This document shows positions 40,739 to 43,700 of a DNA stretch of 64,000 nucleotides, piece by piece (position 1 is the stretch's first letter; each line of letters starts with the position of its first letter). A program made the position numbers. The stretch is from Escherichia coli (GTDB lineage Bacteria > Pseudomonadota > Gammaproteobacteria > Enterobacterales > Enterobacteriaceae). The DNA lies in assembly GCF_965641715.1 (NCBI RefSeq), contig NZ_OZ282453.1. One strand, given 5' to 3'.

Positions 40739-43700
40739 TGACACTAACGCCCGCACATTGCTGCGGGCTTTTTGATTCATTTCGCAAATGTGCTGACATT
40801 TTCCCCTCTAATCCGTACCATACACGCCACAGTTTTTATATCAGATTTCTTATGCTGGGCGTTCCGGCATGACGCATACTCTTCTGATGCCATATAACGA
40901 ATTGAGTCGCTTTTAAATGTCGCAAAATCAAGAAATTAGCAAGAAAGAACAATACAATCTGAACAAGTAAGGGTAAAAATCACAACTATCTGACGAACAA
41001 TGTTTTTATAATTTTTTCAACATGTTAGACAGGATGAACATCTACAATAAAGCACAATAATCTACACTTTTTTTGCCCCATTTTTGCCCCTTTTACGGCC
41101 TTTTGTCCCATTTTTGCCACAGTAAAAATCTATAACTAATCAATCTGTGATCTGCAATTTGCGCCCATGAATTCTTTCCAATAGAATCAGTTCCGGCTGG
41201 AATCATTAAATACCCCCACAGTCGAAAGTTCCCTAGCCAACTGCCGCCGTTCTTACATATGACGTACTGCGGCTATGTTTTTCAATCTGTAGCTGTGCTG
41301 GTGAATTATGAGCAATCTGAATCCATGCATGACGTGTGGTGCCTGTTGTGCATTTTTCCGCGTCTCTTTTTACTGGGCCGAAGCCGATGATGCTGGCGGT
41401 ACTATCCCTGCAAGGCTCACAGAACAAATATCCCCTTTTCACCGATGTATGAGCGGTACCAATCAGAAAAATCCCCGCTGTGTCGCTCTGGCAGGCACTC
41501 CGGGCAAAAATGCCTGCTGCACAATATATGACAATCGTTCGTCCACATGCAGAGAATTCGCCATGTCTGGTGAGAACGGAGAAGCCAATGAGGCGTGCAA
41601 CAGAGCAAGGGCTAAATATGGGCTGGACCCGCTATAAATATACGACAATTGTAAAGCCCGACTGTTGTAACAGTCGGGCTTCATTTATTACAGCTTCTCT
41701 GCTTTTTTATTCTGTGAAACCTGGTTCATCTGGCCACACAATATCCGGTGCTACTGATGTATCAACACGGTTCAGCAACACCCGATACTTTTTCCAGGTT
41801 GTTACCAGACTCACATTCGTTCATTAATATGTCCTGTGATTTGCGTGCGGTGAGGTAGCCTTTTCCCAACCTCACCATCATCCGGCAATTTGTATTTATC
41901 ACAAACGGCCTGTATCAGTTGTCTGTTGCACCAACCATACCCGCAAATTTGAGCCATTGTCCTGATGGACTTCTGTTACCGCGGTAGTGATAAACAAGGA
42001 TTGCATTTGTTACTCCACCATAGTCAGCTTTATGTGATGTGGTTAAGCGAATTGTATAATCACCATCGGGCAGGTTAAAAACTTCAATTACAGTCCCTGC
42101 TAATTCAACCGCTCCAAACCCCGTTATATTGTTGATGCTGCCCGCATTGAATCCCATCATATCGCCAAAACCAATCCAGTACTTTTTGCTGAACGCACCA
42201 TTTGACCTCAGGTGGTTAATAAATGTGGACATACTCATGCCCATTTCGCCGCCAGTTATGGCTGATGTACGTACCGAAATACTTGGCAGAGCACTACTCT
42301 TCACATAAGAGCTCAGAAGATTTATGACTTCTGTTTTCGTATAAGCATTAACGTTAGCCGCAGTCAACGTTATATCCGCAGTGCCATCAAACTTCACACC
42401 AGCAATTTCCCTTGCAGTCTGCAATTTCGTGGCACTGGCTGCGTTACCCGTTGTATCCTGATTGCCTGCCGCATTCACCCCCGGGATCAAATCTTTTACT
42501 GTATAAATCTGCGCCCAGTCCGACTCAAACCCATACTCATCCCGTGAGGAACGATAAAACAGCCCACCATTTTTATAATTGGCCCTGATTTGCAACGTCC
42601 GGCAACTTCCACCCCCTGTATAGAAGTTTGCAACAATATAGCTGCTGCCTGTCCGGGTGACATTGTATGCACCAGATTTGGCATTCCACGGAACGCCTCC
42701 CTCTGACTCTGCGTGCACACCGGACGATCCAAGAGCAAAAGCAGAGACATCTGCAGCGGACAGCCTGATGTCTGATTTCAATGCCTTACCATTCACCTTA
42801 CGACCAGATGGAACCCGGTCATTTGCATTATCATTCACCGCTTTCACCGCCATTGGTGTTGCCGCCAGCGATTCACTGTCACTGTCCGTGGCACTGCTGA
42901 GCTGTACCACCCCCTTTCTCGTCGTGCTCGCATCCTCTAGCGCCACGGCAGATGCAATATCCTCTGCCCGTTTTGCTGCTGTCTCGGCACGCGTTGCTGC
43001 AGATTCCGACGTACTTTTGCTCTGAGCTGCCGCTGTCGCACTACCAGCTGCCTCTGTCGCCTTCGTGGATGCCGTCGTGGCACTGACCTTCGCCTCTGAC
43101 GCCTGTCTTACCGCCTCATCTTTTGAAGCAGACGCCGATGATGCTGATGACGCCGCCGAACTGGCGGACGATGCGGCTGCCGTTTCTGAGGCTCCTGCGC
43201 GGGTTTCCGACGCTTTCGCATTCGTCTCAGATGTCTTCGCTGCGGAAGCAGAACTCGCAGCTGCAGTGGCCTGTTCAGTGGCTTCGCCAGCCTTCGTTGT
43301 GGCTGTTGAAGCGGACGATGCAGCGCTTTCTGCCGATTTTCCGGCGGCAGCGGCACTGGCTACAGCCTCCCCTGCCTTCACTGATGCCTCACGGGCCGAT
43401 GATGCAGCCGCGGTTTCTGAGCCTGCCGCAGCTGAGGCACTCTGTCCCGCTGCCGTTTCAGAAGACCTGGCGTTCGTCTCGGACGTTTTTGCCGCTTTCG
43501 CGGAATTGCCTGCCGCTGTTGCCGAGGAAGCTGCGCTACTGGCGCTCGAGGATGCGTTCGTTTCTGATGATTTTGCCGCCTCTTTTGAAGCCGCCGCATC
43601 CCGGGCTGAGGTGGCAGCTTCTGACGCTTTCGTAGTCGCGGTGGATGCAGAAGTGGCTGCTGATTGTTGTGACGCTGCCGCATTCGTTTCTGACGTTTTC

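What the first reader, a model, noticed from the sequence alone, without database searches (positions are those of the whole stretch)
40917..40975. Prophage junction marked by a displaced 17-codon ttcA 5' fragment
A short ORF MSQNQEISKKEQYNLNK-stop shares KKEQYNLNK with the N-terminus of TtcA as I recall it, and homology ends at the stop codon. This fits integration into the 5' end of ttcA, with the phage supplying a replacement 5' end at the other prophage end. The core att sequence should lie in the last roughly 25 bp of the fragment.
Basis: partly seen in the sequence, partly recalled or inferred. Interest (0 to 1): 0.5.

Follow-up and report, generated by a model that had tools for sequence, protein, structure and literature searches.

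The report
Leftover ttcA start at prophage junction
The 17-codon ORF is the original start of the E. coli tRNA-modification gene ttcA, cut off when a Rac-like prophage inserted into that gene; E. coli K-12 already annotates this remnant as the pseudogene ttcC, so the finding is correct but ordinary.

Summary
ATG 40917 to codon 17 at 40967, with stop TAA 40968-40970, encodes MSQNQEISKKEQYNLNK. This peptide is identical to the K-12 MG1655 pseudogene ttcC (b4638), which lies beside uspF at the edge of the annotated "cryptic prophage Rac". It is also identical to the first 17 residues of TtcA in prophage-free E. coli.

The window matches a prophage-free genome with 0 mismatches over 40000-40966. 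From 40967 onward it diverges (66 of 94 bases differ) into lambdoid prophage DNA.

The 26-bp att site annotated in GenBank for phage Rac-SA53, and shared by both K-12 Rac junctions, maps to 40941-40966. Only 15 bp (40952-40966) are shared between the two junctions of some Rac-like prophages.

Relatives carry xisR-intR followed by a chimeric ttcA with a phage-supplied 5' end at the far junction. In this window that end lies beyond base 64000, and I could not retrieve it.

Liu et al. 2015 (PMC4632033) published this arrangement and showed that excision restores the "ancient" TtcA N-terminus.

About 46% of complete E. coli genomes have the empty site and about 33% have a homologous occupied junction.

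The only small addition is a conserved cluster of TTTTGCCCC repeats in both att arms, which may be integrase arm sites.

The parts
40307..40741 (+). uspF, the host gene immediately upstream of the native ttcA promoter region
   Evidence: Pfam Usp domain. Annotated as uspF in ETEC1730, K-12 and LH50-c at the syntenic position. Coordinates were transferred from L004:1308-1742 using the offset validated.
40749..40768 (+). uspF intrinsic-terminator-like hairpin followed by a T run
   Evidence: Consensus scan, (7-pair stem with 6 G-C pairs, then TTTTTGATTC).
40769..40916 (+). Native ttcA upstream region (promoter and ribosome-binding region), left behind with the fragment
   Evidence: 100% identical to the region upstream of intact ttcA in prophage-free LH50-c. 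One weak sigma-70-like site at 40793-40821, not above chance. Promoter function is inferred, not shown.
40917..40970 (+). ttcC-type pseudogene: 17 codons of the native ttcA 5' end plus a TAA stop supplied by prophage DNA
   Evidence: (K-12 ttcC b4638 translates to the same 17 residues).
40941..40966 (.). 26-bp att core (AAGAAAGAACAATACAATCTGAACAA). Host-derived identity ends at 40966.
   Evidence: Same position and sequence (one T/C difference at 40958) as the 26-bp misc_recomb sites of Rac-SA53, KU052037, and the segment shared by the two K-12 Rac junctions. Alignments to seven unoccupied sites all end at 40966.
40952..40966 (.). Minimal segment shared by both junctions in ETEC1730 and Rac-SA53 (ATACAACCTGAACAA there). 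Strand exchange must lie within it.
   Evidence: In ETEC1730 and Rac-SA53 the int-proximal site reads AAGAAAGAGATATACAACCTGAACAA and the int-distal site reads AAGAAAGAACAATACAACCTGAACAA. The position of the crossover is inferred.
40967..41307 (.). Prophage att arm (int-distal arm), homologous to the K-12 Rac and Rac-SA53 arms
   Evidence: 4-way alignment with mean column identity 87%. It is 99.5% identical to ETEC1730, whose prophage ends in xisR-intR-ttcA.
41071..41120 (+). Four direct TTTTGCCCC-like 9-mers (starting at 41071, 41082, 41101 and 41112), arranged as two pairs at 11-bp spacing. Candidate integrase arm-type binding sites.
   Evidence: 0 of 100 shuffles reach 4 same-strand hits in 50 bp. 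The block is conserved in K-12 Rac and Rac-SA53. Two TTTGCCCC copies 11 bp apart also lie between the intR stop and the ttcA ATG in K-12, ETEC1730 and Rac-SA53. Binding is inferred.
41308..41637 (+). Prophage-borne YkgJ-family cysteine-cluster gene, co-oriented with the ttcA fragment
   Evidence: Pfam PF03692 CxxCxxCC. Annotated as 'YkgJ family cysteine cluster protein' in ETEC1730.
41915..64000 (-). Lambdoid prophage late region running off the window end: tail fibre, Lom, J, tail assembly, tape measure, tail tube, head genes, portal, terminase gpA and Nu1
   Evidence: ORF map; Pfam hits; gene and Pfam lists of homologous loci; best genome matches are annotated as phage tail and head genes.

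Best explanation
The ORF at 40917-40970 is the orphaned native 5' end of ttcA, the gene for tRNA 2-thiocytidine-32 synthetase. It sits at the integrase-distal junction of a Rac-like lambdoid prophage that integrated by tyrosine-recombinase site-specific recombination into codons 9-17 of ttcA. In the K-12 map convention this junction is attR. It is the same object that K-12 annotates as pseudogene ttcC.

Mechanism: the phage attP carries an imitation of the ttcA start next to its int gene. This imitation comprises a ribosome-binding region, an ATG, about 8 diverged codons and then the core. Recombination within the shared core (26 bp in K-12, of which 15 bp are common to all variants seen here) joins the phage imitation to the body of ttcA at the int-proximal junction, so the lysogen keeps a functional, slightly altered TtcA. 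The native promoter and first 17 codons are left beside uspF and now run into phage DNA, which supplies the last base of codon 17 and a TAA. Excision reverses the exchange and restores the native N-terminus.

Shown here: the identity of the fragment, the exact breakpoint, the prophage content to its right, and the homologous arm. Shown only in relatives and in the literature: intR and chimeric ttcA at the far end, and excision restoring TtcA'. Inferred: the precise crossover interval, and the role of the TTTTGCCCC repeats as Int arm sites.
For: Identity of the fragment:
- The peptide is identical to K-12 ttcC (b4638), which lies next to uspF at the boundary of the annotated 'cryptic prophage Rac'.
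- Prophage-free LH50-c and FCI56 have uspF followed by an intact ttcA that begins MSQNQEISKKEQYNLNKLQKRLRR.

Breakpoint:
- The window has 0 mismatches to LH50-c over 40000-40966, then 66 of 94 mismatches.
- Six further empty-site contigs all stop aligning at 40966.
- An artificial uspF-core-ttcA hybrid is found as one continuous place in 2,486 of 5,426 complete genomes.
- The homologous occupied junction is found in 1,774 genomes, including Sakai, where it is annotated 'prophage Sp10, lambda-like phage'.

The att site and the far end:
- ETEC1730, which is 99.5% identical to the window across the junction, has xisR-intR-ttcA at the far end. So do K-12 and Rac-SA53, whose GenBank record annotates 26-bp att sites at both ends.
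- Chimeric TtcA N-termini differ from the native one at 4 residues in K-12 and 6 residues in ETEC1730.

Prophage content:
- Genes to the right are lambdoid tail and head genes.

Literature:
- PMC4632033 states that Rac lies between ttcA and pseudogene ttcC', and that excision changes four N-terminal TtcA residues to the 'ancient' form.
Against: - The window contains no TtcA body, IntR or XisR, and the source genome could not be retrieved. Whether this prophage still has an intact int-proximal junction and a chimeric ttcA is therefore untested.
- No complete genome carries this exact prophage. From about 41732 the tail module matches prophages integrated at other loci, such as near prfC in PEC41. 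The element is therefore mosaic and may have been rearranged since integration.
- No complete genome reproduces the window's two SNPs at 40940 and 40958 in an occupied junction.
Confidence: 0.94

Rival explanations
1. The junction is a relic. A Rac-like prophage did integrate here, but the far end (intR and the ttcA body) has since been deleted or rearranged. The present lambda-like late region would then have been brought in by recombination with another prophage, so the fragment no longer pairs with a chimeric ttcA.
For: Only the first ~765 bp of the arm match Rac-like prophages at ttcA. From about 41732 onward, the best matches are prophages at other chromosomal sites, with a truncated tail-fibre-assembly remnant at the joint. 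No complete genome has the same combination. The far end is not in the window.
Against: Mosaic late regions are usual among the Rac-like prophages seen here: ETEC1730 has a P22-type capsid module and K-12 has a deleted one, yet both retain intR-ttcA. ttcA is present in 5,410 of 5,426 genomes searched. Nothing in the window indicates a deletion.
Confidence: 0.05
2. The 17-codon ORF is a functional small-protein gene in its own right. It would be kept because the peptide, or its translation, does something, rather than being a passive remnant.
For: It retains the native ttcA upstream region and start codon. The peptide is 17/17 identical in K-12, Rac-SA53, ETEC1730 and this window despite synonymous DNA differences.
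Against: The conservation is fully explained by recent derivation from ttcA, which carries the same synonymous polymorphisms in empty sites (LH50-c has the window's C at 40940 and T at 40958). The stop codon is simply the first one met in phage DNA. K-12 annotates it as a pseudogene. No known RNA or protein family matches it.
Confidence: 0.02
3. A phage with an unrelated integrase happens to use the same ttcA site, so the element is not a member of the Rac/IntR group.
For: The integrase is not in the window. The late genes differ from those of K-12 Rac and ETEC1730.
Against: The arm just inside the junction is homologous to the K-12 Rac and Rac-SA53 arms, including the conserved TTTTGCCCC repeat block. 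It is 99.5% identical to the arm of ETEC1730, whose prophage encodes intR. The breakpoint is the same base.
Confidence: 0.03

Closest known systems
ttcC (b4638), pseudogene at the uspF-side junction of cryptic prophage Rac in E. coli K-12 MG1655
   Same: Same 17-residue peptide, same neighbour (uspF), same orientation relative to uspF, same 26-bp core position and same breakpoint. DNA identity is 49/51.
   Different: Two synonymous SNPs: C at 40940 and T at 40958, both also seen in the empty site of LH50-c. The adjoining prophage is not the 23-kb defective K-12 Rac. It carries a full lambda-like tail and head region and a YkgJ-family cargo gene in place of ynaM/ynaE/pinR.
Rac-like prophages integrated in ttcA (Rac-SA53 KU052037; Sp10 of O157:H7 Sakai; CP-933R of EDL933; the ETEC1730 prophage)
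   Same: Integration into ttcA codons 9-17, a 26-bp annotated att site, a homologous int-distal arm, and a phage-supplied replacement ttcA 5' end next to intR (PMC4632033).
   Different: The late-gene module in the window is a different mosaic: a gpA/Nu1 terminase with a lambda E-type capsid, versus a P22-type capsid in ETEC1730. The early region and integrase are not available for comparison.
Phage integration into the end of a host gene with a phage-borne replacement end (for example phage 21 in icd, P4-like elements and many phages in tRNA genes). This comparison is from general knowledge and was not tested here.
   Same: attP carries a copy of the gene end, so integration regenerates a functional gene and leaves a short orphan fragment at the other junction.
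   Different: Here the 5' end is replaced rather than the 3' end. The promoter and ribosome-binding site must therefore also be supplied from the phage side, and the orphan keeps the native promoter.

Membership tests
ttcC-type ttcA 5' remnant at a Rac-like prophage junction | A short ORF identical to the first 17 codons of native (prophage-free) ttcA | tested here: met
   17/17 residues and 50/51 nt against LH50-c ttcA; 17/17 against K-12 ttcC.
ttcC-type ttcA 5' remnant at a Rac-like prophage junction | Located directly downstream of uspF, with the native ttcA upstream region intact | tested here: met
   0 mismatches to the empty-site genome over 40000-40966. Synteny ydbK-micC-ompN-uspF as in K-12.
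ttcC-type ttcA 5' remnant at a Rac-like prophage junction | Homology to intact ttcA ends at the 3' edge of the 26-bp att core, and prophage DNA follows | tested here: met
   The break falls at 40966/40967 in comparisons with seven empty sites. The core coincides with the annotated att sites of KU052037. Phage genes follow.
ttcC-type ttcA 5' remnant at a Rac-like prophage junction | A partner junction with xisR-intR and a ttcA carrying a phage-derived 5' end | not testable with these tools
   Not present in the window, and the source genome was not retrievable. Present in the relatives K-12, ETEC1730 and Rac-SA53.
Rac / Rac-like prophage (IntR-type lambdoid) | An att arm homologous to Rac | tested here: met
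   The arm aligns with K-12 Rac and Rac-SA53, including the conserved repeat block. It is 99.5% identical to ETEC1730.
Rac / Rac-like prophage (IntR-type lambdoid) | An IntR tyrosine integrase, XisR, and the Rac early region (racR, kilR, recET) | not testable with these tools
   These genes would lie beyond base 64000. tblastn finds no IntR or XisR in the window.
Lambda-paradigm tyrosine-recombinase att site | Repeated arm-type integrase binding sites on both arms flanking a short core | tested here: inconclusive
   Four TTTTGCCCC-like repeats lie at 41071-41120, and two TTTGCCCC copies lie between the intR stop and the ttcA ATG in relatives. They are clustered beyond shuffles and conserved. 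Protein binding cannot be tested here.

The most novel reading that the evidence does not exclude
The displaced native ttcA promoter, ribosome-binding site and 17-codon ORF may not be inert. They may act as a host-controlled leader that transcribes into the co-oriented cargo gene at the prophage end: the YkgJ-family gene at 41308-41637 here, and ynaM/ynaE in K-12. Integration would then wire a phage 'moron' gene to the host's ttcA regulation. The evidence does not exclude this. The cargo genes are co-oriented with the fragment both in this window and in K-12, and no terminator-like signal was found between 40971 and 41308. No expression data were available, and the promoter scan is not above chance.
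Probability: 0.1. Interest if true: 0.35.

Novelty: already known. Interest (0 to 1): 0.08.

Why it matters
The finding matters mainly for annotation. It fixes one prophage boundary to the base (40966/40967). It identifies the element as a ttcA-integrating Rac-like lambdoid prophage. It predicts that the lysogen's TtcA carries a phage-derived N-terminus, which Liu et al. 2015 reported to behave differently under carbenicillin stress. It opens no new question. The only small additions are the narrowing of the exchange region to at most 15 bp and the conserved TTTTGCCCC repeat clusters on both arms as candidate IntR arm-type sites.

Tried and rejected
(1) I tried to reach the far end of this prophage in its own genome.
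- The exact-protein look-up of the terminase returned many contigs, none identical to the window (best 99.6%).
- The tail fibre and J proteins are not on record.
- No RefSeq complete genome matches the window exactly.
- I abandoned this route.

(2) I first took the six contigs sharing the truncated OmpN piece for near-isogenic empty sites. They are only about 97.5% identical to the window, so I used them only as further breakpoint witnesses.

(3) I tried to map the crossover using the T/C polymorphism at 40958. No complete genome has an occupied junction with T, so the idea that exchange lies in 40959-40966 remains an untested inference.

(4) A full-text search for 'ttcC' alone returned only acronym collisions. 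A search for 'Rac-SA53' found one unrelated paper.

(5) An Rfam scan found nothing at the junction: MicC lies 2 kb to the left, and a sub-threshold IS009 match lies at 41753-41823.

(6) The promoter scans were uninformative. One weak site upstream of the fragment is not above chance, and there are none in the last 460 bp before the relocated ttcA in ETEC1730.

(7) I initially misplaced the ATG by one base, at 40918.

Full report
**Observation**

The window reads ATG at 40917-40919, then 16 more sense codons to 40967, then TAA at 40968-40970. The translation is MSQNQEISKKEQYNLNK. The 27-mer at 40941-40967 occurs once in the window, against 0.00 expected by shuffling. When native TtcA is run against the six-frame translation of the window, the only hit with an E-value below 0.5 is 40917-40967, at 17/17 residues.

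**Context**

To the left of the fragment are:
- a 1174-aa pyruvate:flavodoxin oxidoreductase (ydbK/nifJ);
- MicC at 38688-38808;
- ompN, split by an amber codon;
- uspF with its terminator-like hairpin.

To the right are:
- a + strand YkgJ-family gene;
- on the - strand, a tail fibre gene, lom and J;
- tail assembly, tape measure, tail tube, head, portal, gpA terminase and Nu1 genes, running off the end of the window.

The fragment therefore sits exactly between the E. coli core chromosome and a lambdoid prophage.

**What it is**

K-12 MG1655 annotates a 51-bp pseudogene, ttcC (b4638), beside uspF. It lies at the last base of the feature 'cryptic prophage Rac', and it translates to the same 17 residues.

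Prophage-free strains LH50-c and FCI56 have uspF followed directly by an intact ttcA and then dbpA. Their TtcA begins MSQNQEISKKEQYNLNK-LQKRLRR.

Identity of the window fragment to related sequences:

| Compared with | Nucleotides | Residues |
|---|---|---|
| LH50-c native ttcA | 50/51 | 17/17 |
| K-12 ttcC | 49/51 | 17/17 |
| K-12 chimeric ttcA (MQENQQIT...) | 42/51 | 13/17 |
| ETEC1730 chimeric ttcA (MQENQKNT..EI..) | 37/51 | 11/17 |

**Breakpoint**

An ungapped comparison with LH50-c gives 0 mismatches over 40000-40966, and then 66 mismatches in the next 94 bases. Six further contigs with an empty site also stop aligning exactly at 40966. These six are only about 97.5% identical to the window overall, so they are independent witnesses rather than near-isogenic controls. 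The third base of codon 17 (G at 40967, where attB has A) and the stop codon are therefore prophage DNA.

**The att site**

The two K-12 Rac junctions share AAGAAAGAACAATACAACCTGAACAA. The GenBank record of phage Rac-SA53 (KU052037) annotates 26-bp misc_recomb sites at both ends, at the same position. In the window this site is 40941-40966, with one difference, T at 40958.

In Rac-SA53 and ETEC1730 the int-proximal copy reads AAGAAAGAGATATACAACCTGAACAA. Only the last 15 bp (window 40952-40966) are common to both junctions, so strand exchange must lie there (inference).

The window's T at 40958 and C at 40940 are also present in the empty site of LH50-c. If the phage half carried C at the 40958 position, as all the phage halves I saw do, exchange would be confined to 40959-40966. 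I could not test this, because no complete genome has an occupied junction with T.

**The other end**

ETEC1730 is 99.5% identical to the window over 40200-41700. It carries a Rac-like prophage (racR, kilR, recE, recT, ralR, trkG) that ends in xisR-intR. This is followed 51 bp later by ttcA, on the same strand as the fragment, and then dbpA. K-12 and Rac-SA53 have the same arrangement.

The window itself contains no TtcA body, IntR or XisR. I could not retrieve the source genome. For this prophage, the chimeric ttcA is therefore predicted rather than shown.

**Frequency**

An artificial uspF-core-ttcA sequence is found as one continuous place in 2,486 of 5,426 complete E. coli genomes. A junction homologous to the window's, covering at least 80% of a 221-bp query, is found in 1,774 genomes. 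These include O157:H7 Sakai, where it is annotated 'prophage Sp10, lambda-like phage'.

**Literature**

Liu et al. 2015 (PMC4632033) make four relevant statements:
- Excision changes four N-terminal TtcA residues because the two att sites match imperfectly.
- The post-excision TtcA' equals the TtcA of strains without rac-like prophages and is the 'ancient' form.
- The two forms differ in metabolic activity under carbenicillin.

My counts agree: 4 differences for K-12 and 6 for the ETEC1730/Rac-SA53 type.

**Mechanism**

This is classical tyrosine-integrase insertion into the 5' end of a gene, with attP carrying a substitute gene start next to int. Integration joins the substitute start to the ttcA body, and it leaves the native promoter plus 17 codons orphaned beside uspF.

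- Shown here: the fragment's identity, the breakpoint, the phage content and the arm homology.
- Shown in relatives and in the literature: the far junction, and the reversal on excision.
- Inferred: the exchange interval, and how the relocated ttcA is transcribed. No promoter-like or terminator-like site was found in the last 460 bp before it in ETEC1730, which is compatible with read-through from intR but does not show it.

**Additional detail on the arms**

Inside the prophage arm, four same-strand TTTTGCCCC-like 9-mers lie at 41071, 41082, 41101 and 41112, forming two pairs at 11-bp spacing. None of 100 shuffles reached 4 hits in 50 bp; the maximum was 2. The block is conserved in K-12 Rac and Rac-SA53, while neighbouring columns drift. 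Two TTTGCCCC copies 11 bp apart also fill the spacer between the intR stop and the ttcA ATG in K-12, ETEC1730 and Rac-SA53. This layout resembles arm-type Int sites of the lambda paradigm, a comparison made from general knowledge. Binding is untested.

**The prophage is mosaic**

Only 40967 to about 41732 (the arm plus the YkgJ gene) matches Rac-like prophages at ttcA. From about 41732 the best matches are prophages at other sites, for example next to prfC in PEC41 at 98.8% identity, with a truncated tail-fibre-assembly remnant at the joint. The late region is lambda-like (gpA/Nu1 terminase, E-type capsid). ETEC1730 instead has a P22-type capsid module, and K-12 Rac lacks most late genes.

**Verdict**

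The feature is already annotated and published, so its interest is low.

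Noticed in passing
window 39711 (ompN, 39033-40166 +): ompN is interrupted by an amber mutation, CAG to TAG at codon 227, which splits it into ORFs of 226 and 121 aa. The same lesion occurs in six unrelated-looking Logan contigs (L012-L017) that have an empty ttcA site.
   Followed up: yes
window 41071-41120; also L003, L002 and L018 between the intR stop and the ttcA ATG: Clusters of TTTTGCCCC-like direct repeats at 11-bp spacing lie on both att arms: four on the int-distal arm and two on the int-proximal arm. They are conserved among Rac-like prophages and are candidate IntR arm-type binding sites. I found no description of them in the papers I read.
   Followed up: partly
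window 40958 and 40940: Two synonymous SNPs in the fragment (T at 40958, inside the 26-bp core, and C at 40940) match the empty site of strain LH50-c. No occupied junction among the 5,426 complete genomes has them. If the phage half carried C at 40958, strand exchange would be confined to 40959-40966.
   Followed up: partly
window 40971-41637: The prophage's terminal cargo gene (YkgJ-family, 41308-41637) is co-oriented with the orphaned ttcA promoter and fragment, and no terminator-like signal lies between them. K-12 shows the same co-orientation (ttcC, ynaM, ynaE). Read-through from the host promoter is possible but untested.
   Followed up: partly
window ~41732-41915: A mosaic joint: homology to Rac-like prophages at ttcA ends near 41732, and homology to prophages at other loci begins. 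The stretch holds a truncated tail-fibre-assembly remnant and a sub-threshold Rfam IS009 match (41753-41823, 41.8 bits against a gathering score of 117).
   Followed up: partly
window 38688-38808 (-): MicC sRNA (Rfam RF00121, 125 bits) lies between ydbK and ompN, as in K-12.
   Followed up: yes
L020:1313-3534 (E. coli PEC41, next to prfC): At the end of the prophage that shares the window's tail module sit a DinI-like gene, a reverse-transcriptase-family gene and a TIR-domain gene. This looks like a retron or defence-type cargo cassette.
   Followed up: no
L001:12079-16089 and L001:44127-48827 (E. coli ETEC1730): The Rac-like prophage of ETEC1730 is decayed by insertion sequences: an IS1 splits the tape-measure gene and an IS100 (istAB) truncates recE.
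   Followed up: no
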